Shown here: positions 33,394 through 53,800 of the stretch, in pieces | Position numbering within the stretch: the first letter of the stretch is position 1 | Layout of the letters: each line of letters opens with the position of its first letter | Assembly (NCBI GenBank): GCA_963836755.1 | Contig: CAWIKF010000002.1 | Coordinates: 2,176,001 to 2,240,000, forward strand | Length of the DNA stretch: 64,000 bases | Reading direction: 5' to 3' | Source of the DNA: an uncultured Verrucomicrobiae bacterium | GTDB taxonomy: Bacteria > Verrucomicrobiota > Verrucomicrobiia > Chthoniobacterales > Chthoniobacteraceae | Notes under the pieces: model-generated | What the model saw: only the letters and a program-made list of their open reading frames with translations | Databases searched by the model: none | Told to the model about the DNA's origin: nothing | Position numbers and translations under genes: made by a program

Positions 33394-33475
33394 TTATCTG
33401 CAACCGACAACGGTCGGAAGGATATTTCCTCCTGAAAAAGCAGGTGTTACTCTGAGAAGGTTGGTTCGGTGGGCG

Positions 33476-33748
33476 GGAAACTTTCCTGCTTTTTCCGAAG
33501 ACTTCCTTCCTTTTGTTACGGAGGGATATGTTTTCTCGGGAAAAGGATATCCCTTTGCAGAAGAAACATATGTTTCCGCGGCGAAAACATACCCTTTTGT
33601 GACGGACACATATGTTTTCGGGAGGGAAACATATCCTTTTGTTGCGGACACCTATCGTTTCGCGACGGGCACATATCTTCCCGCGACGGACACCTATGTT
33701 CTCGTCGCAGAAACATATCCTTTTGCTGGAGATTGATCTCGTTTCGGC
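33476..33748. repeat. Degenerate 21-nt tandem array (~13 units) with dyad cores
   Basis: Units such as GAAGAAACATATGTTTCCGCG / GCGAAAACATACCCTTTTGTG / ACGGACACATATGTTTTCGGG / AGGGAAACATATCCTTTTGTT in unbroken 21-nt register. Confidence 0.9.
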
Positions 33749-33926
33749 GCGGCTTTAGGGAACTTTGAGGGAGACTTGGCGGAGCTTGCGCGCGGCGGAG
33801 GGAAGGGCGGTTGAGATGCGCAGCTTTTCCGGGGAGATGCGGCGACGGATGGCGGCGGGGTGGTTACGGTCGTGGCTTCAATCGAACCAACCAAAACCAA
33901 CTCAGTTCAATCCAGCCCGCTCTATT

Positions 33927-34550
33927 ATGATCGCAAAAGTTTCCATCAATTTTCTCAATGACGACACGGACCCGGAGTTGCTCGTCGATACCGACCGCGT
34001 GCTTACTTTGATGACGGGGAATGCGGTTTATGTGACGCCCGACCCGACGCTGGCGGCCGTGACGGCATCGCGCACGCTGTTTCAAGGCACGGTGAATGCG
34101 CTCAATGGTGGCACGGAGGCAACGGCGGCGCGCGATGCGCAGCGGAAGGTATTCGCGGGGCTCGTCCGCGACCTCGCCGCCTATGTGCAGAAGGCGTGCG
34201 GCGGTGACATGGTGAAGCTGCTGAGTTCCGGCTTTCCCGCGCAGAAGGATCGGCAGCCGGTGAACGGCGACCTGTCTGCGCCGGGAAATCTGCGGCTGAC
34301 GCGTTCCGGGATGAGCGGACAGATGAAGGCGCGCTGCACGCCGGTGGACAATGCGACGGGTTATCAATGGCGCTGGGCGCTTTCGACAGCGCCGACGGTT
34401 TTCACGATGGTCGAGCCGCCGACGACTGCGGCGAATGTGCTGATCGAGAATTTGACGCCGGGGACGGTTTACGTGGTGCAGGTGCGCGCGACGGGGACGA
34501 AGGGGAGGATGAGTGACTGGAGCGACCCTGCGGTTTTGATGGCGGTTTGA
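33927..34550 (+). CDS. Helical N-domain + fibronectin type III-like protein, no signal peptide
   Basis: APGNL, NLTPGTVYVVQVRA, SDWSDP FN3 motifs. Confidence 0.8.
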   Translation: MIAKVSINFLNDDTDPELLVDTDRVLTLMTGNAVYVTPDPTLAAVTASRTLFQGTVNALNGGTEATAARDAQRKVFAGLVRDLAAYVQKACGGDMVKLLSSGFPAQKDRQPVNGDLSAPGNLRLTRSGMSGQMKARCTPVDNATGYQWRWALSTAPTVFTMVEPPTTAANVLIENLTPGTVYVVQVRATGTKGRMSDWSDPAVLMAV

Positions 34551-34596
34551 CGGCGGGTCGGCTGGGGTCAAAAAGCGGCCATCGGCTGCAAAATCC

Positions 34597-34627
34597 CCAT
34601 CCGTGTTCCATCCGTTTCCATCCGTGG
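34597..34627 (+). repeat. Short triple repeat (CCATCCGT core)
   Basis: CCATCCGTGTT CCATCCGTTT CCATCCGTGG. Confidence 0.75.
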
Positions 34628-34678
34628 CTAAACCCGACACAGAGCGGTATCGGCTCGTGACGCGGGTTTGACGCAACT

Positions 34679-35905
34679 TTATGTCGACTTTTTCCGCAGG
34701 AGCTCTTCGTAAAGCTCCGCCGTCTGCTGCGCGATCGCGTGCCAGGAAAACTTTTCCTCAGCGCGCTTGCGGCCGGCTTTGCCGAAACGGTTACGCTTTT
34801 CGGGGTCGGCCATGAGCTCGTTGATGCCGGCGGCGAGGTCGCGGGAGAATTGGTCGGGGTTCGACGGCTCGAAGGGGCTCTCTTTCATCTGCTCGAGCGG
34901 GACGAGGATGCCGGTTTCGCCCGGGACGACGACTTCTTTAATGCCGCCGACGGCGCTGGCGACGACGGCCGTTTCGCAGGCCATGGCTTCGAGGTTGATG
35001 ATGCCGAACGGTTCGTAGATGGAGGGGCAGCAGAAGACGGCGGCCTGGGAGTAAAGTTCGTAGACGGTGGTTTTGTTCACCATTTCCTCGATCCAGATGA
35101 CGTCGGGGCGCTGAACTTTGACGGCATCGACGGCGGCTTTCATCTCGGCGGCGATCTCCGGGGTGTCGGGCGCGCCGGCGCAGAGGACGATCTGGAAGCC
35201 GGGGTGCATGTATTTCACGGCGTTGACGAGGTGGACGATGCCTTTCTGCCGTGTGATGCGGCCGACGAAGAGGACGAAGGGGACGGCGGGGTCGATGCCG
35301 TATTTCTCCAGCGCGACGGTGGTGGTGACGGGCTGGTATTCGTCGAGGTCGATGCCGTTGTAGATGATGGGGACGCGCTCTTTCGGGACGTTAAACAAAC
35401 GGAGGATGTCTCTTTGCGTCTCGCGGGAGACGGCGATGACGGCGTCGGCCATCTCTATGGCGGTTTTCTCGACCCAGCAGGAAAAGTCGTAGCCGCCGCC
35501 GAGTTGCTCGCGTTTCCACGGGCGGAGGGGCTCGAGCGAATGGACGGTGAGGACGAACGGGATGCCGTAGTTCATCTTCGCGAGGATGCCGCCGAAATGC
35601 GTATACCAAGTGTGGCAATGGACGATGTCGGCGTCGATATTCGTGGTGTTCCAGTCGAGACAATGTTGGACGGCGTTAAACACGCTGTGGAGCGGCTTCG
35701 GCGCGGTGTAGCCGCTGGTGTCGACGCCGTAGCCGGTGGCCTGGAGCGTGGGCGTGTCGATGCGCGTCTCGCGCTTTTCCTTGCCGTAGCAGCGGGCTTC
35801 GACGTCGATGAGCTTTGAGAGTTCGCGCGACAGGTAATCGACGTGGACGCCGGCGCCGCCGTAGATGGTGGGTGGGAATTCGTTTGTTAAAAAAAGTGCT
35901 TTCAT
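34679..35905 (-). CDS. glgA: Glycogen synthase, GT4 GlgA/GlgM type
   Basis: TNEFPPTIYGGAGVHV, HSLEPLRPWKREQLGGGY, YEPFGIINLEAMAC. Confidence 0.9.
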   Translation of the reverse strand: MKALFLTNEFPPTIYGGAGVHVDYLSRELSKLIDVEARCYGKEKRETRIDTPTLQATGYGVDTSGYTAPKPLHSVFNAVQHCLDWNTTNIDADIVHCHTWYTHFGGILAKMNYGIPFVLTVHSLEPLRPWKREQLGGGYDFSCWVEKTAIEMADAVIAVSRETQRDILRLFNVPKERVPIIYNGIDLDEYQPVTTTVALEKYGIDPAVPFVLFVGRITRQKGIVHLVNAVKYMHPGFQIVLCAGAPDTPEIAAEMKAAVDAVKVQRPDVIWIEEMVNKTTVYELYSQAAVFCCPSIYEPFGIINLEAMACETAVVASAVGGIKEVVVPGETGILVPLEQMKESPFEPSNPDQFSRDLAAGINELMADPEKRNRFGKAGRKRAEEKFSWHAIAQQTAELYEELLRKKST

Positions 35906-36215
35906 TGGGTTGGGAGAAGGAAAAAAGCGAACCGATTCATTGCGGCCATGCGTATCGCATTTATCGTTGCGAAACAAATCTCCTATTTTTTCCGCAACGC
36001 CCCACTTTTCCCTTTTTCTTTCTGAGAAAGCTTCGCCTGTTTTTCCACATGATTTCCGTTTTGTCTTCCGAGAATCCCGCTTTCTGCGGGGAATCCTTTT
36101 ATTTCCGCAGGGCACGAATCGTGGTTTTATGGTCGACCCGTCTGCGCATGATTTTTGGTTCCCTCCCCTTCACCGTTAAGATCCTTCAACGCCGGCTTCG
36201 CGCCGTTTCCGGGAA

Positions 36216-37178
36216 TTGAACGCGCCGATTCGCAAGGCATTCGTGCTGGGCGCGGGACTCGGCACGCGCTTGAAAACATTGACGGCGAGGACGCCGAAGC
36301 CGCTGCTGCCGATCTTCGGGAAACCTCTGATCACCTTCGCGTTTGACCATCTCATTCGCAACGGCGCGGAGCAGTTCGTCATCAATACGCACCACTGCCC
36401 GGAGTGTTATACACGCATTTTTCCAGAACACTTTTACCGCGGACTGCCGCTCCACTTTGAACACGAGCCAACGCTGCTGGAAACGGCTGGTGGGATCAAA
36501 AACGTCGAGCGATTGCTGCGCAACGACACGTTCATCGTTTACAACGGCGACATCCTCAGCGACCTGCCGATCGAGCGCGCGGTCAGCCAGCACTTCGAGC
36601 AGCGGAACGACGTGACGCTCATCCTCCGCTCCAGCGGCGCTCCGCTCCACATCGCGCTCGAGGGCAGCCGCGTGGTCGATATCGCGGGGCGCTTGCGCGC
36701 AAAGGCCGACGGCCATTACATGTTCACCGGCATCTATATTGTGAGCCCGTCATTCCTGGTCAAAATTCCGTCGCGCACCAAAATTTCCGTGATCCCGATC
36801 TTCATGAACATGATCCAGAAAAACCAAAAGCTCGGCGGCATCGTGATCGACGAGGGACATTGGTGGGACCTCGGCACGCGCGAAAGTTATCTCGAGGTGC
36901 ATCGACACCTTGCGAAACAACCGTTGGAATTTGAAATCAATCCGCGGATCGCGGGCACATGGCCGGAGTTCATACACCCGAGCGCGGAAATTTCTTCCTC
37001 GGCGAAAATATCCGGCGCCACATCCATTGGAGCGTCGGCGTTCATCAGCCCGGGCGTGCAGCTCCACGACTGCATCATCTGGGAACACGCCCGGGTCGCC
37101 CCCGGCGCTGTGTTGAACAACTGCATCGTCACTTCCGGCCAGACGGCGAGCGGCTCGCACACCGATCTCGATTTCTAA
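36216..37178 (+). CDS. Sugar-phosphate nucleotidyltransferase (MurU-like)
   Basis: LGAGLGTRL, PKPLL, LETAGGI, YNGD, WWDLGT; adjacent to an AmgK-like kinase. Confidence 0.8.
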   Translation: MNAPIRKAFVLGAGLGTRLKTLTARTPKPLLPIFGKPLITFAFDHLIRNGAEQFVINTHHCPECYTRIFPEHFYRGLPLHFEHEPTLLETAGGIKNVERLLRNDTFIVYNGDILSDLPIERAVSQHFEQRNDVTLILRSSGAPLHIALEGSRVVDIAGRLRAKADGHYMFTGIYIVSPSFLVKIPSRTKISVIPIFMNMIQKNQKLGGIVIDEGHWWDLGTRESYLEVHRHLAKQPLEFEINPRIAGTWPEFIHPSAEISSSAKISGATSIGASAFISPGVQLHDCIIWEHARVAPGAVLNNCIVTSGQTASGSHTDLDF

Positions 37179-37181
37179 ACG

Positions 37182-38183
37182 ATGCGCCTCGCCGATTCTC
37201 TCCTCCGCGAAACCGTCTCGCGTTTTCCGCGCTACGCGAAGAGCGGCATCAAAATCGAGCCGGTGGAAAAGGGCGGCTCCGACCGCAAATATTACCGCGT
37301 CCGCATCGGCGGCGAGCATTCGCTCATCCTCGTGAAATACGGCGACGGCCGCGCAGAGAATCGCCACTACGTCGCGATCGCGCAATTCCTCGCGAGTCTC
37401 GAAATTCACGTGCCGGAGATTTATTTCCATGATGAAAATGAGCAACTGATCTGGATGGAAGATCTCGGCGAGCGCGATCTCTGGTCGTTCCGCAACGAGC
37501 CGTGGGAGACGCGCCGCGAGCTTTACGCCAGCACGCTCGATGAGCTCGTCGCGCTGCATGCGCGCGCTCATCACGCGTTGCCAGATGCGGGGCTAACTTT
37601 GGAAGCGGAGTTCAACGCCGACCTCTACGCATGGGAACAAAATTACTTTTTCGAAAATTGCGCGCACCGGTATTTTGGCTCCGACCGCGCGGAATGTGAT
37701 CGCGATGCGCTGCGCGAAATCGCGTCGCAGTTGCATGAGCTGCCGCGCGTTTTGGTGCATCGCGATTTCCAGTCGCAAAACATTTTGATCGATCACGACC
37801 GCGCGCACCTCATCGATTTCCAAGGGCTGCGCCCCGGTCTCGCGCCTTACGATCTCGCCTCGCTGATTTACGATCCATACGTCGCGCTGCCGGAATCCGA
37901 GCGCGCGGAGCTGCAGCAAACTTACATTGAAAAAGCACAAGAGGCCGGCGTCGAAATTTCGAAAAACTTCCACGAAATCTTCGACCTCTGCGCGATGCAA
38001 AGATTGATGCAGGCACTCGGCGCATACGGTTTTCTTGGCCTCGTGAAAAGGCGGACGCACTTCCTCGATCACATCCCGATCGCGCTCCATTCGCTGCGCG
38101 AAGTCACCGCGCGGATCAAAGTTTTGCGGGAGCTGCCGGAGCTGCTCGCCGACTTTTGCGACAACATTTCGCGTGAAAAATGA
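37182..38183 (+). CDS. APH-family phosphotransferase (AmgK-like)
   Basis: GSDRKYYR, MEDLG, HRDFQSQNI, IDFQG, YDLASL, QRLMQALGAYG. Confidence 0.82.
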   Translation: MRLADSLLRETVSRFPRYAKSGIKIEPVEKGGSDRKYYRVRIGGEHSLILVKYGDGRAENRHYVAIAQFLASLEIHVPEIYFHDENEQLIWMEDLGERDLWSFRNEPWETRRELYASTLDELVALHARAHHALPDAGLTLEAEFNADLYAWEQNYFFENCAHRYFGSDRAECDRDALREIASQLHELPRVLVHRDFQSQNILIDHDRAHLIDFQGLRPGLAPYDLASLIYDPYVALPESERAELQQTYIEKAQEAGVEISKNFHEIFDLCAMQRLMQALGAYGFLGLVKRRTHFLDHIPIALHSLREVTARIKVLRELPELLADFCDNISREK

Positions 38184-38419
38184 ACTCGCCGCTGATGCAA
38201 TTTTTCAAGCGCGCGCTCGGCCGCGAACCGGCGCTGCATCCGATCGATCGCGGCCTCGCGAAGCGCTGGATCAAACAGCGGCTCGTCCGCGTTTTTCCGG
38301 AGCTGCGCGATGATCCGAAAGCGCTCGAAGCCGCGTATCATGCGCTCAGTCTCGAGCCTAAGCTGGGCACCGAGGAAGGCGACGCGGGGACTTACTTCGA
38401 GATGAATTGGCCGTTGTAA
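38180..38419 (+). CDS. Small hypothetical protein
   Basis: ATGA-coupled to the upstream kinase; 79 aa. Confidence 0.6.
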   Translation: MNSPLMQFFKRALGREPALHPIDRGLAKRWIKQRLVRVFPELRDDPKALEAAYHALSLEPKLGTEEGDAGTYFEMNWPL

Positions 38420-38467
38420 AACTTTCGCCAGCGCTGCGTTTCGCGCGAAAGTTTGCGGCGTAGTCTC

Positions 38468-39295
38468 ATGAAAAAAACTTTGCTCCCATTGCTATTTTGC
38501 GTCTGCGCGCTCGCCGGATGCGCGCCGCTCACGCCGCCGCCCGCGGGCGAAACGATCATCCACAATCGCGTTTATTCCGTGCCGCCCGATGGACGCCCGC
38601 TGCGGCTCGACATTTATTCGCCGTCGGGGCGCGGCCCGTTTCCACTGGTCATGTGGATTCACGGCGGCGGCTGGAAATATGGCAACAAAGGCTGGATGCT
38701 TTACCTGCGAAAGCTGACGCAGCGCGGCTTCGCGGTCGCATCGGTCGAATATCGGCTGAGCAATCGCGCGAAATATCCGGCGCAGTTAAACGACTGCCGC
38801 GACGCGCTCGCGTGGCTTTGGAAAAATGGCGCGAGCTATCGACTCGACCGCCGCAACACTTTCCTCGCCGGAGCTTCCGCGGGCGGACATCTCGCGGCGA
38901 TGCTCGGCCTCGAGGAAGGCCACGCGCGAATCGACGCCGTCTGCGCGATGTATCCGGCGACTGACCTGACGGGCTTTCCAAACCAGGACGCGCTGCGCGG
39001 ATACTTGCCGGAATTGCTCGGCGGCTCGGTCAATCAAAAACGGGCGCTGGCGGAATCGGGCAGCCCCGTGCGGCATGTCGATAGGAGTGCGCCGCCGTTT
39101 TTGATTTTCCACGGCGACAAAGATTTGCTCGTGCCGATCCGTCAAAGCGAGGAACTCGACGCCAAGCTGCATCGCGCGGGCGTCGAATCGCATCTCGTCG
39201 TGCTGCCGGGAATGCCGCACGGCTTTGCGCTGACCGATGCGCAACTCGATTCGGTCGCGCGATTTTTCCGCGCGCATCTTCGCGAAAAACTTTGA
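38468..39295 (+). CDS. Alpha/beta hydrolase (HSL-type esterase) lipoprotein
   Basis: Lipobox LAGC, HGGGW, GASAG, HGDKD, HGF. Confidence 0.9.
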   Translation: MKKTLLPLLFCVCALAGCAPLTPPPAGETIIHNRVYSVPPDGRPLRLDIYSPSGRGPFPLVMWIHGGGWKYGNKGWMLYLRKLTQRGFAVASVEYRLSNRAKYPAQLNDCRDALAWLWKNGASYRLDRRNTFLAGASAGGHLAAMLGLEEGHARIDAVCAMYPATDLTGFPNQDALRGYLPELLGGSVNQKRALAESGSPVRHVDRSAPPFLIFHGDKDLLVPIRQSEELDAKLHRAGVESHLVVLPGMPHGFALTDAQLDSVARFFRAHLREKL

Positions 39296-39302
39296 CGCCG
39301 AT

Positions 39303-40250
39303 TTAATCGAGCGCCGAAAGTTTTTTCCAAAGCTCCCGCTGTTCGGCGGTCAGCGTTTTCGGAATTTCGATCTGCGCGACCACGTAAAGATCGCCGCGCG
39401 TGTCGCCAGCTTTCGGCAGACCGCGCTGCTTGAGGCGGAAGCGCTGGCCGTGCTGCGTGCCGGGCGGCACTTTCATTTTCGCAGCGCCCTCGAGCGTCGG
39501 CGTCGAAATTTCGCAACCGAGCGCGGCCTGCCACGGCTGCAAGTCGGCCTCGTGAATGAGGTCGCTGCCCTCGACGCGAAAATCGGGATGCTGCGCAAAT
39601 TTTACGCGTAAAAAAAGATCGCCGGCGCTGCCGCCGTGCGCGCCTTTGCCGCCCTGGCCCGCGAGCCGAATCCGCTGTCCCTCGTGAACGCCGGCTGGGA
39701 TGCGAACGCTGTAAGTTTCCGTCTTCGCGTGCTGCGAACGGCGAAACGAAACCTGCCGTTTCGACCCGTGCAGCGCCTCCTCGATCGTGACGAGAATGTC
39801 GGCCTCGACGTCCTGCCCGCGCTGCGAAATGTCGCGCTGACCAAAGCCGCGCGCGTCGCCCATGCCGCCGCCAAACGGGTTGCGCTGCGCGCCGCCGCCG
39901 CCGAAAAATTGCTCGAAGAAATCGCTGAATCCTGTGCCGCCGAAATGAAAATCCGCGCCGCCATTTCCCTCGCCACCAGCGCGGTGCTGCCAGCCCGGCG
40001 GCGGTTGCTGCGGACCACCACGTTCCCAATCCGCGCCAAGCGTGTCGTATTTTTTCCGCTTCTCCGGGTCGCTTAGAACTTCATACGCCTCGTTGATTTC
40101 CTTGAACTTTGTCTCGGCCGTTTTCTTGTCCTTGTTGACGTCCGGATGATGCTTGCGGGCGAGCTTGCGAAACGCCTTTTTGATTTCGTCGGGAGTGGCC
40201 GCTTTTGAAACGCCGAGCGTCTCGTAATAATCCTTGAATTGAACTGGCAT
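39303..40250 (-). CDS. cbpA: DnaJ-class chaperone CbpA-like
   Basis: FKDYY, HPD, GFSDFFE; C-terminal domain without a zinc finger. Confidence 0.85.
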
Positions 40251-40318
40251 CGTGACGACGGAACCTAGCCGCTGTTCGCGCCGCTGCCAATGTCTGCGCG
40301 CCGCACGCGCGAAAATTT

Positions 40319-40990
40319 TTACATGCCGCCCGGATGCCGCGCGGTGAAGCCCCACGTCTCGCGGCTGTCGTAATGCCAGCGCGGGCCGACATTGCCGCCG
40401 CGCTGGAAATCGGTCGTGTCGAGGCGCAGCCCGGCGATGACGGCAAAGGTGTGGCCGTTGCGCGCGTAGATCGTGAGCCAGCGGCCTTTTCCACGCTGGC
40501 CAAAGTCCATCAACTCGCGTGACGGAATCGGCGAATTCAGAACGCCCGCGTGATGCAGCGCAAACGAAATGCTGCCCGAGCAATCGTAGCCGGAATCGAG
40601 GAACGAGCCGTGCCCGCCGCCCCATTTGTAAGGCGTTTTGCGGATCGTGTTGACGGCCCAGATCGCATTTTTCACAGCCTGCGGCGCATTCGATGGCGCA
40701 TATGCCACGCCGTGTCGGATGACCGCGCGATCGCCCTGCACCATCGGTCGCGCAGCACTCAAGACGGCCGGCGCACTCGATTCTTCATCCTGCTCCGGAA
40801 CAGCGGCCGGCTCGAAAATGGTCGGTGAATAAAGCGCGAGCTCCGTGCTGTGGCGCACCGCGTGCGCGCGCGGAATGTTTTGCGAACCGCTGAAGAACGG
40901 CTCGGAATGAAGCGCCGCGGCCGACAGCGAAAAAACTGCTGCTGATGCGGCGCAGATGCGGAAGTAAAAAGAAAAGCGTGAAGAGAACAT
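40319..40990 (-). CDS. NlpC/P60-like cell wall peptidase
   Basis: [14 protein letters not shown], downstream His; signal-like N-terminus. Confidence 0.8.
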
Positions 40991-41147
40991 GGTAATTATG
41001 AAGCTAGTTGCGCGCCATGCCGCGCCCTTTGAGCTGCCGCCGCGAAAAATTTGCGCTGGTTCTAGTGGCTGGTTGATTTAAATCAATCGCAATCGTCCCG
41101 AGCGGCGAAAAAAGATGCGCACATTCGTTTGTTTAACTGGTCGTTGA

Positions 41148-42966: not shown

Positions 42967-43041
42967 AGCGGCTTCGGAGGAATTTTGACGCGATCAAAAG
43001 TTGGAGCTTGTCACAAAAATGCGCGTGCCTATTTTGCGGGA

Positions 43042-43758: not shown

Positions 43759-43836
43759 AACGTCACGCGATTTTCCACGGCGCGGTTCCAAAATCGGCTG
43801 TGCGATTGTTGCTAGCGCGTCAAAGTTTGCCGCGCG

Positions 43837-44229
43837 CTATGAGGCCGGACGGTCACCGGACGGGAGATTCGCCTCGATGAATTTCACAAGGGCGTCGAGG
43901 CTCACCGGCTTCGCCATGAACGGGAATCCGCCGATCAAATTCCCATCGACCGCTTCTTTTTTCGAAACGATCGCCGTCAAAAAAACGATTTTCGATTTCG
44001 ACAAACTTCCGTCGGCTTGAATCTGCCGCGCGACATCGCCGCCGTCGATTTTTGGCATCACGATATCGAGCAGGATCAAGTCCGGACGAAACTCGCGCGC
44101 GGTTTCGAGCGCCTTCGTGCCATCATTTTGCTCGCGCACGATGTAGTCACCGGTGCGCTCGAGCGTCAGTTTCATGAGCCGGGTGAAACCGGATTCGTCA
44201 TCGACGATGAGGATGCGTTTTTTTTCCAT
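43837..44229 (-). CDS. Single-domain response regulator
   Basis: ILIVDDE, LLDIVMP, FLTA, AKP. Confidence 0.9.
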   Translation of the reverse strand: MEKKRILIVDDESGFTRLMKLTLERTGDYIVREQNDGTKALETAREFRPDLILLDIVMPKIDGGDVARQIQADGSLSKSKIVFLTAIVSKKEAVDGNLIGGFPFMAKPVSLDALVKFIEANLPSGDRPAS

Positions 44230-44235
44230 AGGGGC

Positions 44236-46218: not shown

Positions 46219-46274
46219 GGGGCAGAAATAATTGCGCGTGGCGTGGCAAAAGGCGAGCAGATGTTTTACGCGTG

Positions 46275-46290
46275 TGGCACACGCTTTGCA
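46275..46290 (+). promoter_or_regulatory. Sigma-54 (-24/-12) promoter
   Basis: TGGCAC-ACGCT-TTGCA, consensus spacing. Confidence 0.7.
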
Positions 46291-46308
46291 TAAGCAACCG
46301 GCGAACTC

Positions 46309-46386
46309 ATGCCGATCCTTCTTTTCGTCATCGCAATCCTCGCCGGCTTTTTCTGCGTCGTCGCGTGGCGAACCAAAGGCTGGTAA
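46309..46386 (+). CDS. 25-aa single-TM small protein
   Basis: MPILLFVIAILAGFFCVVAWRTKGW; directly after the sigma-54 site. Confidence 0.6.
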   Translation: MPILLFVIAILAGFFCVVAWRTKGW

Positions 46387-46737
46387 AGCGTCCTTGCGCT
46401 TTTAGAAGAAGAAGCGACGGCTAACGATGCCAGCTGACGGGCGAGATTTGACCGCCCTCTGACCACCAGCAATGGCCGGTCCAGATGCCGAGAACTTTTT
46501 TGCCGCTGCCGAAAACGCACGAGACGACTTCGTAGCGGACCGGCTTCACGAGGCGGGCGCAATGGAAACGAGCAAGCTTCGGCATGGCGTCGCTTTCAGA
46601 GCAAATGACGTGCCGAGGTGCGCTCGAAGCTTATTTCGCGGTTTGGCGAAAAACTCCCGTGACTAGCGCATCACAATAGGGGAATGTCCTTATTATCCAT
46701 GGAAAATCTCCCAGCATTTCTAGCCTGCGTGAACTCA

Positions 46738-46769
46738 TGTTACGGAAAAGTAACACTTCAAACTTTGCC
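46738..46769 (+). promoter_or_regulatory. TGTTAC-N6-GTAACA-N8-TTTGCC promoter element
   Basis: Same layout at 52650 and 53911; 30 nt upstream of the cassette start. Confidence 0.6.
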
Positions 46770-46799
46770 TTCCGTCGCGCGAGAAGGCATTAGGGCCGG

Positions 46800-47423
46800 A
46801 TGAAACTTCGGACTTGGCAAAAGGCGGCCTTCACGCTGGTCGAGCTGCTGACCGTCATGAGCATTATCTGCATAATGCTCGTTGCCACCGTCCCCGCGAT
46901 TCAAGGTCTCTCAAAGAGCTCCTCGCGCCAGGCAGCGGTCAACATGCTGATGGATGTGATGGATCAGGCCCGCGGCCTGGCGATCACGCAGGGGCGGCCG
47001 GCTTACGTGGTTTTTGCGGATGGGAATCTGCCGGGGGATAAAATGGACCGCGCCGTGTGTATTTTCTCCGATAATTCCGATCCGGCGCAGCCGCCGAGCA
47101 TGCAGACGAAATGGAGCACGCTGCCCACCGGCTACTGCTTTAAGAACGACTCCTCAGTTTCGACCATCCTGAATGCGCCCGCGGACACGCCGGCAATCAC
47201 GTTCTCAGGCCAGGGCTTCACCAAAGTCGCTTTCCCTTACGTTCGATTCAGCGCGACTGGCGAGGTGCTTCATCCGACGAATCCAAATTATTCGCGAATC
47301 GTCCTCCTGAACGGATTCACCAATCCAAACGGCACGCAGGTTTCCACTTCCCCCTCCACGGTCACAGACCAGATCGTCGTTTCCCGATACACGGGGCGGC
47401 CGAAATACGTGAACGGGTTATGA
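46800..47423 (+). CDS. Verru_Chthon cassette protein D-like (GspH/FimT-type pilin)
   Basis: AFTLVELLTVM, QARGLAI, RFSATG, YTGRP. Confidence 0.8.
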   Translation: MKLRTWQKAAFTLVELLTVMSIICIMLVATVPAIQGLSKSSSRQAAVNMLMDVMDQARGLAITQGRPAYVVFADGNLPGDKMDRAVCIFSDNSDPAQPPSMQTKWSTLPTGYCFKNDSSVSTILNAPADTPAITFSGQGFTKVAFPYVRFSATGEVLHPTNPNYSRIVLLNGFTNPNGTQVSTSPSTVTDQIVVSRYTGRPKYVNGL

Positions 47424-47908
47424 AAAAAAAGTCCGCCGGCTTTTCGCTCATCGAGGTCGCGCTCGCGCTCGGTGTGATCGTTTTTGGTCTCGTCACGATG
47501 CTTGGCGTTTTCCCGATGGGCCTCGATGACAGCCGGACGAGCGTGAAGGAAACACGCGGCGCTCAGATGGCGCGGGCGGTTTTTTCCACGTTACAGACGC
47601 CTTCTTTCAATGCGGTCGATTGCTATGGTCAAACACTCGATCTTTCCTCGCTCGACACGAGCTCGACGCCGGTCTTGCTCTACGCAAAATTCTCCGATCC
47701 GGCGCAGCCGACCATCAGCTCGACGCGTGACTCCGACTCCATCTACACACTGGAGCTTCGCTTCAACCAGAACGTGACCCCCGCCGTCACTCCCGTCACG
47801 CTGAAGCCGATGACGCAGGGCACGGCAAATCTCGTGACGCTGACCATTTACGCGCAGACCAAAGACTCAGGAACCGTCCAATTCGCCACCGTCATCGGCG
47901 ATTACTAA
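47420..47908 (+). CDS. Verru_Chthon cassette protein B-like pilin
   Basis: GFSLIEVALALGVIVFGLVTMLGVFPMGL. Confidence 0.8.
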   Translation: MKKKSAGFSLIEVALALGVIVFGLVTMLGVFPMGLDDSRTSVKETRGAQMARAVFSTLQTPSFNAVDCYGQTLDLSSLDTSSTPVLLYAKFSDPAQPTISSTRDSDSIYTLELRFNQNVTPAVTPVTLKPMTQGTANLVTLTIYAQTKDSGTVQFATVIGDY

Positions 47909-47909
47909 G

Positions 47910-48755
47910 ATGCCTCGAGTTCATCGCGCGAAGAGTGGTTTCACTCTCATCGAAATATTGTTGGCAACGGCGATCACCGCTCTGATCGTGGTCCTGCTCA
48001 TGCACATCTTTTCGGCGACTGCGACGACATGGACGCATGCCGAGCAGCGCACCGACGCCTTCCGCGAAGCGCGCGCCGCGCTCGAGAGCATGGACCGCGA
48101 CTTGCGCAACGCCGTGCCCGCGCCGAAGCCGTCCGCCAGCCCCGATCCGTCGCCTCCGATGCTGGTTTTAAACTTTGACCCCAACACCGCGTCGCAGGAT
48201 CAGGTGAATGAGGAAATCTACATGATCAGTTCGCATCCGAATTCCGGGAAAAGCGATCTTTGCACGATCGGCTACCATTGCGTCTGGAACGCGACGACGA
48301 AATGCTACGTGCTCCGGCGAATCTTCAAGGACAGCGACGCGACTTTCGCCGCCTTCAAGAAAGCCGCTTCGGATGTGCCGATGACCTTTGCCGATCTCTA
48401 CACTTATTCCGCATTGATTGATGACAGCAGCGCCGCAACCCAAACGCCTCCCGCCGACGAGGAAGACGTCGCCTCCTACATCTGGGACCTGACCTTTCGC
48501 CCTTGCGTGAACAACACCCTTTCGACCTCGTATCCGAAGACGAGCTATTCCTCGGTGTTCCCGCTCTGGATCGAGATTCGGTTCAAAGCAGTCGGCGCAT
48601 CCGCGGTCAACAAATTGAAGACTCTTCCCATCACCCGCTCGACATGGGAAACGCCGAATGATCCGCTTTTCAAAAACACCATCCTGCCGTATTCGCAGCA
48701 GTTTGTGATGCGGGTCAAACTTGTCACCTCCACGTCCGGCTCCAGCACGCCATGA
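47910..48755 (+). CDS. Verru_Chthon cassette protein C-like pilin
   Basis: GFTLIEILLA, FREARAALESMDRDL, LCTIGY. Confidence 0.8.
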   Translation: MPRVHRAKSGFTLIEILLATAITALIVVLLMHIFSATATTWTHAEQRTDAFREARAALESMDRDLRNAVPAPKPSASPDPSPPMLVLNFDPNTASQDQVNEEIYMISSHPNSGKSDLCTIGYHCVWNATTKCYVLRRIFKDSDATFAAFKKAASDVPMTFADLYTYSALIDDSSAATQTPPADEEDVASYIWDLTFRPCVNNTLSTSYPKTSYSSVFPLWIEIRFKAVGASAVNKLKTLPITRSTWETPNDPLFKNTILPYSQQFVMRVKLVTSTSGSSTP

Positions 48756-51700
48756 AACAGCCAATCCACACCCAACGCGGCTTTGCGCTCGTGGTAGCGC
48801 TCATCATTCTCTCGCTGCTCGCGATCATCACCGCCGCCTTTCTTTCCAGCATGAGCATGGAGCGAAAAACGGCGCGCGCCTTTGGCAATTCCGCCCGGGC
48901 CGAACTCGCCGCGCAGGCTGCGGTCGCGCAAGGCATCGAGACTTTGAAGACACAGTTCCAGACGCATCCCGACTCAGCGACCACTTGGGAAACGCTCGCA
49001 GTCGGCTCCGGGGCAAGCTCCGGCACGGTCGATGGGACGGTGCTTTACTATCGCGATCATCCGAACGGCGCGGCGATCAATTCGGCCAGCGATACCATCT
49101 CCGTCCTGCCGTTGATGTCCGGTGCCAGCGTGCAGGATGTCGCGGCGAAAAGCAGCGCGGTCACCGTTCCATATTCGGCGAAAAGTTACACCGACGCCGA
49201 CAATACCTACGACCTCAATCACGCGCGCACCGCCGGCGACGCCGCCGGCTGGATTGGCTCGCCCGTCCCGCTTGGCAGCACGCCGAAAACGTTTCGCGTC
49301 CCGTGGGTCGAGATCAAGGACCCGACCGTCACGACGAACGCGAAGGTGATCTCCCGCTACGCCTTTTGGATCGAGGACGAAAGTTTCAAGGTCAACTTTA
49401 ACCTCGCCGGCAAAGTTGTCCGCGGCGCAGCCACCGTCGGCACCGGTCCTTCGCAAATCCCGATGCAAGGCGTCTTCCAGATCGCGATGAACGGCTCCAA
49501 TTACGACCAGCTCGCGAGCAGCGTCTTCGATCTGCGCAACCTTTTCTCCACCAAGTCGCTCCTCGAATACCGCGCGCTCAACCAGATCGACGGCCAGCCG
49601 ACGCTCGCCGACAGCAACAAATTCTACGGCACCATTTTCTCCGGCGGCCTCAACATATCCCGCACCGGCGCGAAGCGGCTCAACCTGAACGCCGTCGTCA
49701 AGGATTCCACCGACGCCACCACCATCCGCAAGCAGCTCGACCAAATTATTTACGCCATCAACTCCCAGCTCCCGAATTTCGGCCAGCGCTTCTACCGCAA
49801 CGGGACCGACCTCAACGCCCTCGACGTCTCCGGCACCGCGCCCGGCCCGGCCAGCGACCAGATGACCGACGTCTATCTTCAGAAAATCGCCTGCAACATC
49901 CGCGATTACATCGACACCGACAGCCAGCCGACCATCGTTAACAACGACGCCGCCAAAACCGTCCTCATCGGCACCAAGCCGACCGACGCCTACCTGACCC
50001 CGGCCCACACCAACACCGGCGCGAATGCCATTCTCGCCATCGGCAAGGAACGCGTCCCGATGCTGGATGAATACGCCTTCCTGGTCTATTCGATCTCGCC
50101 ATTCAGCAATCTAACCTCCAGCGCCACCAACAAGTCCTCCACCTTCAACGTCGGGATGGACCACTACTTCGAGTTTTGGAACATGACCGGCAAGGACATC
50201 AATGTCTCCGACCTCGGGCCAAATCCGTTTTTGAAATTGCTCAATCAGCCCGACTGGGACCTCACCACCCGCGCCTCCGGCAACGCCACCACCGGCGTCC
50301 CACCCGCCAATCGCACCTCCCAGCCCGACATCAATCCCAAGGACTCCATTCCGAACGATGCCAAGCGCGACATCGAAATTCCGCTCAGCGAGTTTCCAAA
50401 TCTCGTCTTCAAAGCCGGCAAGCCCACCGTCCTCACCACGCATCCGACCTCCGACGAGCCACCGGGCTTCCTGCCAAACGCCAGCCTCGTCTTTCGCTGG
50501 ACACCCGCCAGTGGACGGCAATCCTACGCCGACTACCATCGCATCTACAGCGGCGTCACCATCTCGGCCAATTCCAGCAAGCAATTCCGCCTCCTGATGA
50601 ACGCCCGCAATTCCGGCCTCACCGACGCCGATTCGCGCTGCTTCATCGGCAACGACTACGGCGTCCTCGAAAATGACCCGAGCCTCCCGATCATCCGCAG
50701 CTCGGGCAACCAGGACATCTCCTATCAAGATGTCACCGTCTTCCGCGGCGGCTCCCTTTGCGGCACCAACGCCACCCCCTCCCAATACGGCGATCCGCGC
50801 ACGAACCAGGAGCAGTTGAACATCTGCACCTACGACACCGCCCTCAACTTTGACGCCACACGCTACTTCACCTCGGGCCTCGACAGCAGCGTCCCCGGTA
50901 ACAGCTCCCTCACCGAGATCGACTCCGCACCGCCGGGGAACTTCGTCAGCTTCTCCAAATGGAGCGACCCGTGGCCGAACCCCGCGAGCCCTTACACCAG
51001 CGACGCCACGCATGCGCCCTCCGTCCAGGCCAATGCTCCCCTCACCTCCATCGGCCAGCTCGGCGACATCTTCGATCCCGCGCGCAAAATCAACACCTCC
51101 AGCAGCGGCTCCGGCGACATCACCTACAGCCGCGGCGGCGGGCGCACTTTCAAAATCGGCCAGCCCGACGGCTACGACGCCACCAACAACACCGGCGGCC
51201 TCTGGGACGGCAAATCAAAATCCGCCAGCCGCGATTGGACCGCGTGGCGGCTCGCCGATATTTTCAGCATCAATGACGACACCACCACCCCCGGCCTCAT
51301 CAACATCAACGGCGTCCGGCGCGACGGCGGCGCCGCTTTGAAGGCCGCGCTCTACGGGCTGATCTTTGCCGCCGATTCCGACCCGCAGCTCGCGGGTCAA
51401 ACTTTCTACGACGCCACCACCACCGCGCCGATCGCCGCCCTCGTCCAGCAGCTCACCGACCGGCTCAACAACGCCAGCACTTTCACCAACACCGTCGGGC
51501 CATTCGCCGAACGCGGCGAATTTTCCGAGATGCCCATCTTCGACAAGGGCACCAGCCTTTACACCGGCGCAAACATGACAAACGTCAACGACCGCGGCCG
51601 CGAGGAACTTTTCCGCCGTCTCGTCGAGATGACCACCACGCGCGGCAACATTTTCTCCATCTACGCCGTCGGCCAGGCCATTACGCAGAGCGCCACCGGC

Positions 51701-51868
51701 GCGAAAATCGTCACCAGCACCAACCAGACGAAGGTCACCTTCGAGATCGACCCCGTCTGGAACACGCCGCCGCCCACCACCTTTGACCCGACTGATGCCA
51801 ACGCAGCCAAAACCCGATTCAAGACACCCGACCATTATGCCATCAAAATTCTTCAGGTTAGCAATTAG
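48752..51868 (+). CDS. Verru_Chthon cassette protein A-like (PilX/GspK-type, large)
   Basis: RGFALVVAL, RYAFWIEDESFKVN, GLININ, TTRGNIFSIY. Confidence 0.8.
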   Translation: MKQPIHTQRGFALVVALIILSLLAIITAAFLSSMSMERKTARAFGNSARAELAAQAAVAQGIETLKTQFQTHPDSATTWETLAVGSGASSGTVDGTVLYYRDHPNGAAINSASDTISVLPLMSGASVQDVAAKSSAVTVPYSAKSYTDADNTYDLNHARTAGDAAGWIGSPVPLGSTPKTFRVPWVEIKDPTVTTNAKVISRYAFWIEDESFKVNFNLAGKVVRGAATVGTGPSQIPMQGVFQIAMNGSNYDQLASSVFDLRNLFSTKSLLEYRALNQIDGQPTLADSNKFYGTIFSGGLNISRTGAKRLNLNAVVKDSTDATTIRKQLDQIIYAINSQLPNFGQRFYRNGTDLNALDVSGTAPGPASDQMTDVYLQKIACNIRDYIDTDSQPTIVNNDAAKTVLIGTKPTDAYLTPAHTNTGANAILAIGKERVPMLDEYAFLVYSISPFSNLTSSATNKSSTFNVGMDHYFEFWNMTGKDINVSDLGPNPFLKLLNQPDWDLTTRASGNATTGVPPANRTSQPDINPKDSIPNDAKRDIEIPLSEFPNLVFKAGKPTVLTTHPTSDEPPGFLPNASLVFRWTPASGRQSYADYHRIYSGVTISANSSKQFRLLMNARNSGLTDADSRCFIGNDYGVLENDPSLPIIRSSGNQDISYQDVTVFRGGSLCGTNATPSQYGDPRTNQEQLNICTYDTALNFDATRYFTSGLDSSVPGNSSLTEIDSAPPGNFVSFSKWSDPWPNPASPYTSDATHAPSVQANAPLTSIGQLGDIFDPARKINTSSSGSGDITYSRGGGRTFKIGQPDGYDATNNTGGLWDGKSKSASRDWTAWRLADIFSINDDTTTPGLININGVRRDGGAALKAALYGLIFAADSDPQLAGQTFYDATTTAPIAALVQQLTDRLNNASTFTNTVGPFAERGEFSEMPIFDKGTSLYTGANMTNVNDRGREELFRRLVEMTTTRGNIFSIYAVGQAITQSATGAKIVTSTNQTKVTFEIDPVWNTPPPTTFDPTDANAAKTRFKTPDHYAIKILQVSN

Positions 51869-52598
51869 CCTCCTCTTCGCCCCGCTCCTCCACGCGCAGA
51901 CTCCCGCGCCCAGCGAATCCGCCGCCTCCGTAAGCCCGGCCGCCGCATCGCCCGCCGCCTCCGCCGCCGCATCGCCGGGCGGCACGCCCGAAAAGCACGC
52001 CTACGTCCGCTTTTGGAACATGTCCCCGGCGAAAGGCCCCGAGCTAGACCTTTCCGACTCGCCAAATCCCGACGACAAACCGCTCTTCTCCCAGCGCATC
52101 CCGTGGAGCGCCGGCCCCTACGTCCCGATCAAGATCGGCAAATACCCGTTCATCCTTTATAAAACAGGCGACCACAAGCAGCCGATCCAATCCATCAGCG
52201 TCATCCTGCGCGAAAACGTCTTCGTCACCTTCCTCGCCACCGACGACCAGGGCCGCCCGAAAATCGAGCTCATCGACGACACCTACGATCCCGCTGCGGT
52301 CAACGGCGGGCAGGTCGTCGTCCGCAATTACTTCCCCGGCGCCTCCGTCGATCTTCACGGGCCGAAGAAAAAAGTCCTCTTCACCGGCGTCGCCACCGGG
52401 CAGGCGCAGCACACGGACGATTTTCCTTTGAAAAAGCAGCAGATCGTCCTGCACACCGTCCTCAATGGCAACACGCCCGCCGACGCCGGGATGGAGGTGA
52501 ATTTCAAGCGCACCCCGCACGTCACCGTCCTGATTTTCCCGGACACCTACGGCTACTTTCACCCCACGCTGCAGGTGGACGGCATCGCGCCGGATTAG
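51837..52598 (+). CDS. Secreted hypothetical protein at the end of the cassette
   Basis: Signal peptide, A/S/P linker, two beta-rich halves (YVRFWN, VVVRNYF). Confidence 0.7.
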   Translation: MPSKFFRLAISLLFAPLLHAQTPAPSESAASVSPAAASPAASAAASPGGTPEKHAYVRFWNMSPAKGPELDLSDSPNPDDKPLFSQRIPWSAGPYVPIKIGKYPFILYKTGDHKQPIQSISVILRENVFVTFLATDDQGRPKIELIDDTYDPAAVNGGQVVVRNYFPGASVDLHGPKKKVLFTGVATGQAQHTDDFPLKKQQIVLHTVLNGNTPADAGMEVNFKRTPHVTVLIFPDTYGYFHPTLQVDGIAPD

Positions 52599-52649
52599 GC
52601 GTCCCGCAGGAATCTCGAGCCGGAGCGGTTATGGAAAATTTCGTCGCAT

Positions 52650-52681
52650 TGTGACGAAATCTTAACACTAAACCTTTTGCC
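52650..52681 (+). repeat. 32-bp direct repeat, copy 1
   Basis: TGTGACGAAATCTTAACACTAAACCTTTTGCC; 30/32 identical to 53911-53942. Confidence 0.9.
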
Positions 52682-52727
52682 ATCGTCGGCGCGGGGCAAT
52701 AGGCACAGAGGCGGAATGAAGGAAGCG

Positions 52728-52937
52728 CCACCCCCAAGCGCCAGCGGATTATCCCGAAGCGGCATCGGAAAACTCCGAAGCACGGTCGCATCATCCCGAA
52801 GCACCGTCGGGTTGTTCCCTCCAACGGTCACACCGTTCCCTCCAACGCCCGCACCGCTCCTTCCAACGGCGGCACCGTTCCTTCCAACGGCGGCACCGTT
52901 CCCTCCAACGGTGCAACGGTTCCCCGTGCGGACCGGA
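52728..52937. repeat. Degenerate 21-nt tandem array (~10 units)
   Basis: TTATCCCGAAGCGGCATCGGA ... CCGTTCCTTCCAACGGCGGCA units in 21-nt register; lies within ORF 52716-53030. Confidence 0.9.
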
Positions 52938-53026
52938 GTGCCGAACCAGGCCGAAAGCCCATTTTTCACGAAAAGCACCCGCTTTTCACCCAGCAAAACC
53001 ACGAAACGAACAAGAAAGACAAAAAA

Positions 53027-53692
53027 ATGAGCGATTACATACCGAGGCCGGATGACCAATACGGCGAATTCAGCGAGAACCTCCACACGAAAACCTCCGG
53101 CGCGCCCGCCTCCTTCGGGCTCTCCGCGGCCGATGTGACCAACGAAACCGCCGCACATACGGCGTGGGATACCGCCTACAGCGCCCACGTCAGTGCGCAA
53201 ACCTCTGCTGCGACAGCGCAGCAGACCAAGGACACAGCGCGCGGCGTGCTCGAAACCATCCAGCGCGCCCTCGTGGGCCAAATCCAGAAACGGCCCGCCA
53301 CCACCGATGCGCAGCGCACCGACTTGCGCATCACCGTTCCCGACAACACCCCGACCGCCCCGATCAATTCGATCGACACGTGGCCGGTGGCGACCGTCGA
53401 CACCTCCACCTCGCTGCGCCACCGTCTCGATTTTCGCGACAGCGGCACGCCAAACAGCCGAGCGAAGCCCGATGGCGTCATGCTCTGCGAGATCTGGGAA
53501 TACATCGGCGACACCGCCCCGGTGGATGAAAACGCCTACGTTTTCCTCGCCAGCGAGACGAAAACGCCGCATCGCAACGACTTCCCGGCGGCCGATGCGC
53601 GGAAGACGGCGTTTTACCGGCTGCGGTGGAAATTGAAGAGCGGCAATTACGGGCCGTGGAGCCACGTCGTCAGCGCGACGATCCCCGCCTAA
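53027..53692 (+). CDS. Helical N-domain + FN3/Ig-like protein, no signal peptide
   Basis: MSDYIPRPD, TKDTARGVLETIQRALVGQIQ, FYRLRW...YGPWSHVVS. Confidence 0.78.
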   Translation: MSDYIPRPDDQYGEFSENLHTKTSGAPASFGLSAADVTNETAAHTAWDTAYSAHVSAQTSAATAQQTKDTARGVLETIQRALVGQIQKRPATTDAQRTDLRITVPDNTPTAPINSIDTWPVATVDTSTSLRHRLDFRDSGTPNSRAKPDGVMLCEIWEYIGDTAPVDENAYVFLASETKTPHRNDFPAADARKTAFYRLRWKLKSGNYGPWSHVVSATIPA

Positions 53693-53760: not shown

Positions 53761-53800
53761 GAAACAGGCCGGGAGCACCATCCCGGCCTGTTTCATTTTC
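53761..53800 (+). terminator. Intrinsic terminator-like hairpin
   Basis: Perfect 14-bp stem GAAACAGGCCGGGA/TCCCGGCCTGTTTC followed by ATTTTC. Confidence 0.8.

What the first reader, a model, noticed from the sequence alone, without database searches (positions are those of the whole stretch)
33445..53692. Recurrent module: 21-nt-period array upstream of a signal-less helical+FN3 protein, present twice
Seen: two loci 19 kb apart (33445-34550 and 52650-53692) share one layout. Each has a promoter-like element, ~10-13 degenerate tandem units in strict 21-nt register, an A/C-rich leader, then a 207- or 221-aa gene. The proteins are distant but alignable by eye (ATAARDAQRKVFAGLVRDLAAYVQ vs AQQTKDTARGVLETIQRALVGQIQ; C-terminal FN3-like strands ending SDWSDPAV vs GPWSHVVS), and neither has a signal peptide. 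The two arrays share no obvious sequence, so period and position are conserved rather than sequence. Both sit in accessory contexts. Inference: this is a dedicated array+protein system that I cannot match to a described one. The array could act as an RNA, as a DNA scaffold (21 bp is two helical turns) or as a rapidly varying heptad peptide partnering the protein.
Basis: partly seen in the sequence, partly recalled or inferred. Interest (0 to 1): 0.88.

Follow-up and report, generated by a model that had tools for sequence, protein, structure and literature searches.

The report
Mobile two-turn DNA array and protein
Non-coding blocks of 21-base DNA repeats, whose sequence changes freely while the spacing stays fixed, sit in front of a large unnamed bacterial protein family, and in this genome copies of those blocks have also spread to dozens of other places, even in frame inside housekeeping genes, which suggests an undescribed DNA-protein system that is also mobile.

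Summary
Both arrays are real (lag-21 identity 0.52 and 0.63; 1000 shuffles reach at most 0.32 and 0.38). The two proteins are remote homologs (profile match 94%): a helical N-domain plus an FN3 fold. In other genomes, 90 of 114 homolog loci have a 21/42/43-period array upstream, against 0 of 106 downstream. The arrays show no codon-phase selection, include 41-nt periods, are often palindromic and show no RNA-strand bias, so they are most likely double-stranded DNA elements. This scan has reported the array-plus-gene pairing before on other DNA. What this genome adds: 61 arrays, 22 gene-linked and 39 gene-less. Twenty of the gene-less ones share units with a gene-linked array. Several are insertions absent from sister genomes, some in frame inside housekeeping genes; a copy of array B's unit sits in ispG. 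A shared end motif, TTTACTCTGT, abuts unrelated arrays. Best reading (0.4): the protein coats its upstream array, and arrays spread as non-autonomous elements. Binding, function and the mobilising enzyme are not shown. My literature searches found no description.

The parts
30312..30767 (-). Y1 (HUH) transposase gene with 105-nt inverted flanks (REPtron-like); a neighbour, with no link to the arrays shown
   Evidence: PF01797 82 bits; flanks 79% inverted-identical, no other copy in the genome at E<1e-3
32783..33395 (+). Addiction-module antitoxin gene and a RelE/ParE-like partner with an internal stop; context only
   Evidence: PF09720 and TIGR02574; translation; partner name recalled
33385..33393 (-). 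Outward-facing copy of the TTACTCTG(A) array-end motif; overlaps the upstream stop codon, so it may be chance
33447..33455 (+). Inward-facing copy of the TTACTCTG(A) array-end motif
33482..33805 (.). Array A: about 12 degenerate 21-nt units to 33733, fading beyond; dyad-symmetric
   Evidence: dyad z 3.3, p 0.003; RNA fold z -4.7
33806..33926 (+). Leader A, A/C-rich at its 3' end
33927..34550 (+). Gene A (P0001, 207 aa): helical N-domain plus FN3
34597..34626 (.). Short ATCCGTG-type repeat, also found beside other array-linked loci of the genome
52650..52667 (.). Operator-like palindrome TGTKAC-N6-KTAACA; also at 46738 and 53911 and in the leader of another array-linked gene
52730..52924 (.). 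Array B: 9 units of 21 nt; its later units match an in-frame insertion in ispG elsewhere in the genome
   Evidence: 84.5% over 110 nt to G000:C2:1021274
52925..53026 (+). Leader B, A/C-rich; a related leader follows the array at G000:C2:1528773
53027..53692 (+). Gene B (P0002, 221 aa): helical N-domain plus FN3-fold domain, no Pfam match
53761..53794 (+). Terminator-like hairpin after gene B

Best explanation
The array is a double-stranded DNA element, a lattice of mostly two-fold-symmetric units set two helical turns apart (four turns in the 41/42-nt variants), lying upstream of the partner gene and often of its promoter. SHOWN: the pairing, the fixed period with free sequence, the lack of coding signal, frequent dyad symmetry, and the copying of arrays and of whole array-gene cassettes to new sites. 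INFERRED: the encoded helical+FN3 protein, which has a conserved basic surface and no recognisable catalytic motif, binds this lattice cooperatively (one dimer per unit, reading shape and spacing more than sequence) and so controls its own promoter. ALSO INFERRED: the array behaves as a non-autonomous mobile element, copied by a host or trans-acting enzyme, much as REP sequences relate to RAYT genes. The gene-less copies would then be extra binding sites or footprints of that mobility.
For: Pairing: 90 of 114 homolog loci have a 21/42/43 array upstream, 0 of 106 downstream, 3 of 71 far upstream; 10 of 15 family ORFs vs 47 of 2329 ORFs in this genome. Period specificity: 67 lag-21 segments vs 0-12 at each of 11 other lags, plus 7 arrays at 41 and 3 at 42 (one of the 42s is a coding repeat). 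Not coding: best-frame unit-to-unit dN/dS 0.70 vs null 0.70, 2 of 91 at p<0.05, 26 of 91 with no open sense frame. Dyad symmetry in 42 of 70 arrays and in 5 of 5 tested 41-nt arrays. No strand bias: fold z -1.1 sense vs -1.4 antisense in 45 arrays; G-U vs A-C 24:16 arrays, p 0.27. Position: a strong sigma-70-like site follows the array in 12 of 63 loci and precedes it in 0 of 63; sigma-54-like boxes follow 4 gene-linked arrays here. Protein: K68, R72, R80, R97, R145, K147, K193 and R200 are basic in 83-98% of 145 homologs. Mobility: 39 gene-less arrays, 20 sharing units with gene-linked ones; insertions absent from relatives; an empty site for a whole cassette.
Against: No binding, expression or oligomer data. 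Array sequence does not follow protein sequence: similarity is at null level below 60% protein identity, and only 42% of pairs at 80-90% identity have similar arrays. One array with its flanks (88.5% over 585 nt) precedes two dissimilar genes. This excludes tight sequence read-out and equally fits a host reader. The proteins are not strongly basic overall (pI 7.7 and 5.8; family medians 8.9 and 6.3). Window array B as a whole is not significantly palindromic (p 0.31), and 28 of 70 arrays are not. There is no A/T phasing at 10.5 nt, so 'helical turns' rests on the period alone. 21 of 114 homolog loci have no detected array. 51 of 63 loci lack a strong promoter after the array, and the downstream sense score is no better than downstream antisense (p 0.30). 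Open sense frames are somewhat more common than null (1.21 vs 0.84). No target-site duplication or terminal repeat was seen, and no mobilising enzyme is tied to the arrays.
Confidence: 0.4

Rival explanations
1. The array is a portable regulatory DNA element read by a host factor (a nucleoid protein, an enhancer-binding activator, or RNA polymerase sensing DNA structure). The helical+FN3 gene is only the regulated output, and gene-less arrays are stray copies of an array-plus-promoter cassette.
For: Arrays precede sigma-70-like and sigma-54-like promoters. In a sister genome four gene-less copies keep the array and about 55 nt of leader and stop shortly after the TTTACTCTGTAG motif, just before where the parents' start codon lies. 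Array and protein sequences are uncoupled. LytTR operators have the same 9+12 bp spacing with free sequence (PMC6193735, passages).
Against: No LytTR domain found in this 96%-complete genome or among 123 neighbour ORFs (top five families shown per protein). No conserved neighbour gene. One host reader would be expected to impose a sequence consensus, and the commonest conserved 4-mer occurs in only 12 of 70 units. It does not explain why the pairing persists across many phyla with one protein family.
Confidence: 0.25
2. The array works as RNA or single-stranded DNA: a transcript of tandem hairpins bound by the protein, whose copies are reinserted by reverse transcription or by an HUH transposase.
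For: Dyad units fold well in some cases (array A z -4.7). Pooled G-U exceeds A-C, 340 vs 251. Copies are discrete and collinear from the first unit. Y1/HUH transposase domains exist in the genome, one 2.7 kb from array A. In 4 array ends the motif faces into the array.
Against: The G-U excess is not significant per array. Covariation on the dyad axis (+10%) is no greater than off-axis controls (+11 to +15%). Both strands fold equally. Where a strong promoter is visible it lies after the array. No Rfam match.
Confidence: 0.2
3. The arrays are selfish or neutral minisatellites that hitch-hike with a mobile gene family and have no function; 21 dominates because it is tolerated in frame.
For: Rapid turnover. 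Gene-less copies are more homogeneous (0.68 vs 0.61, p 0.009). In-frame copies sit in loops that take other inserts too (4 of 7 AlaRS-like orthologs carry their own).
Against: Frame tolerance cannot explain 41- and 43-nt periods or the near absence of 15, 18, 24 and 27. It does not explain strict upstream placement across phyla or dyad symmetry.
Confidence: 0.1
4. The arrays encode a fast-evolving heptad peptide that partners the protein.
For: Array B has all three sense frames open, one in frame with gene B, and the ispG insertion is read in that same frame. Open sense frames exceed the null on average. Some homolog records are N-terminally longer.
Against: No synonymous bias. 26 of 91 arrays have no open sense frame. 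41-nt units break frame. Array B's in-frame reading has no ATG/GTG/TTG before the gene start. In-frame insertions occur in either orientation.
Confidence: 0.05

Closest known systems
REP/REPIN elements with RAYT transposase genes
   Same: A protein gene next to palindromic repeats, with gene-less copies of the same repeat families dispersed in the genome (REPIN definition seen only in the search listing for PMC3337134).
   Different: The partner here has no HUH/Y1 domain. Units are head-to-tail arrays of 9-20 copies at a fixed period, not inverted pairs. There are about 20 unrelated families in one genome.
BrickBuilt MITE of Porphyromonas gingivalis (PMC4596501; abstract and section 'Genome locations' read)
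   Same: A dispersed, mobile tandem array of similar unit size (23 nt) with leader/tail and promoter activity.
   Different: BrickBuilt has one sequence, inverted-repeat ends and target duplications, is strictly intergenic, and no partner gene is described in the parts read. Here there are many sequences at one period, in-frame insertions, a fixed partner family and no TIR or TSD seen.
Rickettsia palindromic elements (as summarised in PMC10969869, passages read)
   Same: Palindromic mobile DNA inserted in frame in unrelated metabolic genes.
   Different: RPEs are about 150-bp single elements, each encoding a conserved peptide. These are periodic arrays with no conserved peptide and with a linked protein family.
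LytTR regulatory system operators (PMC6193735, passages read)
   Same: 9 bp + 12 bp = 21-bp period, spacing conserved while sequence is not, located just upstream of -35, autoregulatory.
   Different: LRS have a pair of direct repeats, a LytTR regulator and a membrane inhibitor. Here there are 9-20 often palindromic units, no LytTR domain found, and dispersed copies.
Plasmid centromere and iteron arrays (parC, sopC, iterons; recalled, no call)
   Same: Helically phased tandem sites upstream of the gene for their binding protein, often autoregulatory.
   Different: No partition ATPase or Rep among neighbours, the protein fold differs, and the loci are chromosomal and multicopy.
CRISPR, TIGR and VIPR arrays (bioRxiv 10.64898/2026.10.21.760802, section 2.3 read)
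   Same: A periodic non-coding array paired with a protein family.
   Different: Periods there are 60-79, 18 and 5 nt with variable guide segments. No 21-nt class is mentioned in the main text. Units here lack unique spacers and show no RNA signature.

Membership tests
REP/REPIN-RAYT | Partner gene is a Y1/HUH transposase | tested here: not met
   No Y1_Tnp match for P0001, P0002 or 20 paralog-like ORFs; near-invariant residues include no His, Tyr, Asp or Glu
REP/REPIN-RAYT | Dispersed gene-less copies of the repeat next to the gene | tested here: met
   20 of 39 gene-less arrays share units with gene-linked arrays
REP/REPIN-RAYT | Mobilisation in trans by a RAYT-like enzyme | not testable with these tools
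   Y1 domains are present in the genome, but their flanks do not match arrays
MITE (BrickBuilt type) | Terminal inverted repeats and target-site duplication | tested here: inconclusive
   None seen at four insertions, but the relatives are only about 75-88% identical; the end motif scores at one end only in all 21 arrays that carry it
MITE (BrickBuilt type) | Filled and empty sites in relatives | tested here: met
   ispG, NrdJ-like and AlaRS-like insertions and one whole cassette are absent in relatives
Rickettsia palindromic element | In-frame insertion in unrelated housekeeping genes | tested here: met
Rickettsia palindromic element | A conserved peptide encoded by each element | tested here: not met
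   The inserted peptides differ between genes; no codon-phase selection
LytTR regulatory system | Direct repeats at 21-bp period upstream of -35 | tested here: inconclusive
   The period matches; a strong promoter follows in 12 of 63 loci; unit number and symmetry differ
LytTR regulatory system | LytTR regulator plus membrane inhibitor in the operon | tested here: not met
RNA-guided arrays (CRISPR/TIGR/VIPR) | Constant repeat alternating with variable guide, expressed as RNA, with a known effector fold | tested here: inconclusive
   No Rfam or PADLOC match; no RNA signature; expression not testable; N-domain fold not searched alone
Fibronectin type III fold | Beta-sandwich matching FN3 structures | tested here: met
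   Z 15.8, rmsd 1.2 over 89 residues; Z 11.9, rmsd 2.1 over 98; PF00041 for P0001
Plasmid centromere / iteron systems | Adjacent partition ATPase or Rep initiator, with demonstrated binding | tested here: inconclusive
   None among 123 neighbour ORFs (longest ORF per side only); binding not testable

The most novel reading that the evidence does not exclude
A new class of widespread bacterial system. A non-enzymatic helical+FN3 protein polymerises on DNA arrays defined by geometry (palindromic units every two helical turns) rather than by sequence. The arrays are themselves mobile and seed dozens of new protein-loading sites per chromosome, including inside essential genes, where they add new peptide loops. 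That would be a self-spreading, sequence-reprogrammable DNA-organising or regulatory network with about 20 parallel families in one 3.2-Mb genome.
Probability: 0.3. Interest if true: 0.92.

Novelty: categorically new. Interest (0 to 1): 0.8.

Why it matters
The protein family is large (4,623 clusters at 50% identity with E<=1e-10 for one subfamily profile), spans many phyla and has no name or function. A DNA element whose period is conserved while its sequence turns over faster than its partner protein is an unusual recognition problem. The gene-less copies make it directly testable: binding or ChIP on parent and orphan copies in one genome separates a cognate-reader model from a host-reader model. 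The in-frame copies show a route by which non-coding mobile DNA adds 70-110 residue loops to enzymes such as IspG.

Tried and rejected
Peptide coding: rejected. A 7-nt sub-repeat or 10.5-nt A/T phasing inside units: not seen. Compensatory covariation: no excess over off-axis controls. Pfam, NCBIfam, PADLOC, PHROGs, PDB-sequence and ESM Atlas searches gave only FN3 or unnamed clusters. Fold searches were filled by the FN3 domain; the helical domain was not modelled alone, so its fold relatives are untested. No relatives were found in viral contigs with two patterns per subfamily. No RNA holder was listed for locus A; this is no evidence on expression. A homodimer prediction could not be run because the queue stayed full; there is no result. 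The link between the nearby Y1 transposase and the arrays was not supported. TTTACTCTGT read as a general palindromic operator: the TCT centre is specific to array-adjacent copies; a -10 box, an IHF-like site or a recombination site all remain open. Three lag-21/42 hits were removed as coding repeats (two coiled-coil heptad tracts, one Q-rich tract). Literature searches that found no description. They cover only open-access PMC and bioRxiv, and bioRxiv supplements (for example the 66 out-of-band periodic clusters of the Evo-PIN preprint) could not be seen.
Full report
OBSERVATION. Both loci are as described. Lag-21 identity is 0.517 over 33420-33800 and 0.633 over 52730-52960; 1000 shuffles reach at most 0.32 and 0.38. 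These are the only lag-21 segments in the window. Array A has about 12 in-register units and array B has 9; they do not match each other. The genes encode 207 and 221 aa. BLASTP between them is not significant, but their family profiles align over 188 columns (94.4%, E 8.6e-8). AlphaFold models (pLDDT 95.8 and 90.8) show helices, then a beta-sandwich that matches FN3 domains (Z 15.8 and 11.9). The helical domain was not searched alone. No sigma-70 consensus lies at either locus. Neither neighbourhood is syntenic in two same-genus genomes. The Verru_Chthon cassette matches point to a verrucomicrobial host.

THE PAIRING IS GENERAL. A profile of the P0002 subfamily finds 4,623 clusters at 50% identity with E<=1e-10. 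Record titles of the best 80 of 212 GTDB loci name Acidobacteriota, Planctomycetota, Cyanobacteria, Armatimonadota, Bacteroidota/Ignavibacteria, Chloroflexota and Verrucomicrobiia. Of 158 loci held, I dropped 8 own-genome loci and those with hits under 30 bits or starting after profile position 30. Of the rest, 114 had at least 500 nt upstream, and 93 of them carry an array: period 21 in 78, 42 in 11, 43 in 1, 14 in 2, and 12 in 1 (a slicing artefact; two rows were mis-sliced). Downstream, 6 of 106 had any array and none at 21/42; far upstream 3 of 71 were at 21/42; far downstream 0 of 65. These loci are not independent (some come from one genome). In this genome 10 of 15 profile-detected family ORFs have an array, against 47 of 2329 ORFs overall. 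No neighbour gene is conserved among 123 flanking ORFs; methylases, TIR, toxin-antitoxin and housekeeping genes all occur.

WHAT THE ARRAY IS. It is not coding. In 91 de-duplicated gene-linked arrays the best-frame unit-to-unit dN/dS is 0.70, equal to a column-permuted null; 2 of 91 reach p<0.05, and 26 have no open sense frame. Seven arrays in this genome have period 41. Against this reading, open sense frames average 1.21 vs 0.84 in the null. Units are often two-fold symmetric: 42 of 70 well-registered arrays, 5 of 5 tested 41-nt arrays, 14 of 33 gene-less arrays and window array A (p 0.003), but not array B as a whole (p 0.31). RNA signatures are missing. Both strands fold alike (first 45 of 70 arrays). 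Covariation on the dyad axis is no greater than off it. The pooled G-U excess (340 vs 251) is not significant per array (24:16, p 0.27). With a recalled sigma-70 matrix, a strong sense promoter lies within 120 nt after the array in 12 of 63 loci and before it in 0 of 63, although the paired score is not better than on the antisense strand. Sigma-54-like boxes (motif recalled) follow 4 gene-linked arrays here and 4 of 73 elsewhere. So the array often lies upstream of the transcript. There is no A/T phasing at 10.5 nt; the helical-turn reading rests on the periods 21, 41, 42 and 43. Array sequence turns over faster than the protein: similarity is at null level below 60% protein identity. The P0001 ortholog in a sister genome sits at another locus behind a diverged 21-nt array.

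THE ARRAYS MOVE. The 3.18-Mb genome has 67 lag-21 segments against 0-12 at 11 other lags. After a score cut, adding periods 41/42 and removing three coding repeats, 61 remain: 22 gene-linked (assigned by eye; homology of some helical-only genes to P0001/P0002 is not shown) and 39 gene-less. Twenty of the 39 share units with a gene-linked array. The unit of window array B recurs at G000:C2:1021274 (84.5% over 110 nt) as an insertion in frame inside ispG (TIGR00612), absent from both sister genomes. A collinear copy of another gene-linked array lies in frame in an alanyl-tRNA-synthetase-like gene, about 110 aa longer there than three compact orthologs. Four of 7 orthologs carry their own inserts in that loop, one of them a different 21-nt array by eye. 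A 73-aa array insertion in a ribonucleotide-reductase-like gene is absent in 3 of 3 orthologs, and another lies in an AcrB-like gene. These three gene names are recalled from motifs, not from a call. One whole array-plus-gene cassette of about 1.45 kb replaces about 50 nt in a sister genome. I saw no target duplication or terminal repeat, but the relatives are too distant for exact junctions.

AN END MOTIF. Sixteen of 31 genome copies of TTACTCTG lie within 150 nt of arrays, which cover about 1% of the genome, across unrelated array families; 17 face outward and 4 inward (matrix trained on these sites). The independent test is in two sister genomes: 13 exact TTTACTCTGTWG matches against 0 for the reversed control, 10 of them within about 60 nt after an array. 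There, parent loci continue to the start of an FN3-family gene 20-30 nt later, while four gene-less copies stop shortly after the motif. Locus A carries the motif; locus B does not. Its role is unresolved.

PROTEIN. It is cytoplasmic by crude hydropathy (2.4% of 209 homologs have a hydrophobic N-terminus) and not strongly basic, yet eight Lys/Arg positions are kept in 83-98% of 145 homologs, three spaced along the long helix. Near-invariant positions include no His, Tyr, Asp or Glu, though Asp9 is acidic in 94%. That fits a non-catalytic nucleic-acid binder; it does not show binding.

MECHANISM AND RIVALS. Best reading (0.4): the protein coats its upstream dsDNA lattice, regulates its own gene, and the arrays spread as non-autonomous elements through an enzyme not yet identified. 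Rivals: a host-read portable regulatory cassette (0.25), an RNA or ssDNA hairpin array (0.2), a functionless minisatellite (0.1), a heptad peptide (0.05).

COMPARISON AND NOVELTY. It works like a REP-RAYT pair in its dispersal, like BrickBuilt in being a mobile minisatellite (PMC4596501: abstract and one section read), like Rickettsia palindromic elements in its in-frame insertions (PMC10969869: passages), and like LytTR operators in spacing (PMC6193735: passages). It fails a defining feature of REP-RAYT, RPE and LRS, and the MITE test is inconclusive. A 2026 survey of periodic intergenic arrays lists periods 5, 18 and 60-79 and no 21-nt class in its main text (10.64898/2026.10.21.760802: abstract, section 2.3 and term search; supplements closed). 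Six searches found no description; subscription journals were not covered. Earlier AI notes of this scan report the same pairing in other genomes and one gene-less copy. They are unchecked leads, not support; the numbers above are from my own calls.

Noticed in passing
window 46738, 52650, 53911; G000:C2:1903698: An 18-bp palindrome TGTKAC-N6-KTAACA occurs four times in the genome, three of them in this window (before the pseudopilin cassette, array B and the PATR gene), each followed by a TTTGCC/TTCGAC-like hexamer: a candidate local operator.
   Followed up: partly
window 30312-30767: Y1 transposase gene enclosed by 105-nt inverted repeats that have no other copy in the genome.
   Followed up: partly
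G000:C1:58956-62555: An alanyl-tRNA-synthetase-like reading frame of 1200 aa carries the array insertion, a REP-like palindrome and a Y1-transposase-like domain, all in frame.
   Followed up: partly
L159:786-2972 (G000 ispG): Besides the array, IspG seems to carry a second in-frame insert near its C-terminal domain that resembles the genome's REP-like palindromes.
   Followed up: no
window 33097-33395: The RelE/ParE-like partner of the addiction-module antitoxin has an internal stop codon.
   Followed up: no
window 46800-52598 and 54073-60388: A Verru_Chthon-like pseudopilin cassette and two PATR-repeat autotransporter-like genes surround locus B; absent from two same-genus genomes.
   Followed up: no
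window 30895-32254: Two minus-strand genes (256 and 193 aa) with no Pfam match between the transposase and the addiction module; they look like a defence-island pair.
   Followed up: no
G000:C1:273670 and C1:615828: One array with its flanks (88.5% over 585 nt) precedes two dissimilar genes, an FN3 type and a helical-only type.
   Followed up: partly
G000:C1:543697 and C2:1549174: Composite arrays: two different unit families joined in one tract.
   Followed up: no
L173 (G005:C194), L179 (G011:C258): TTTACTCTGTAG also occurs without an array, once directly after a tRNA gene 3' end.
   Followed up: no
L077, L092: Two planctomycete homolog loci have 14-nt-period tracts instead of 21, probably unrelated heptamer repeats.
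   Followed up: no
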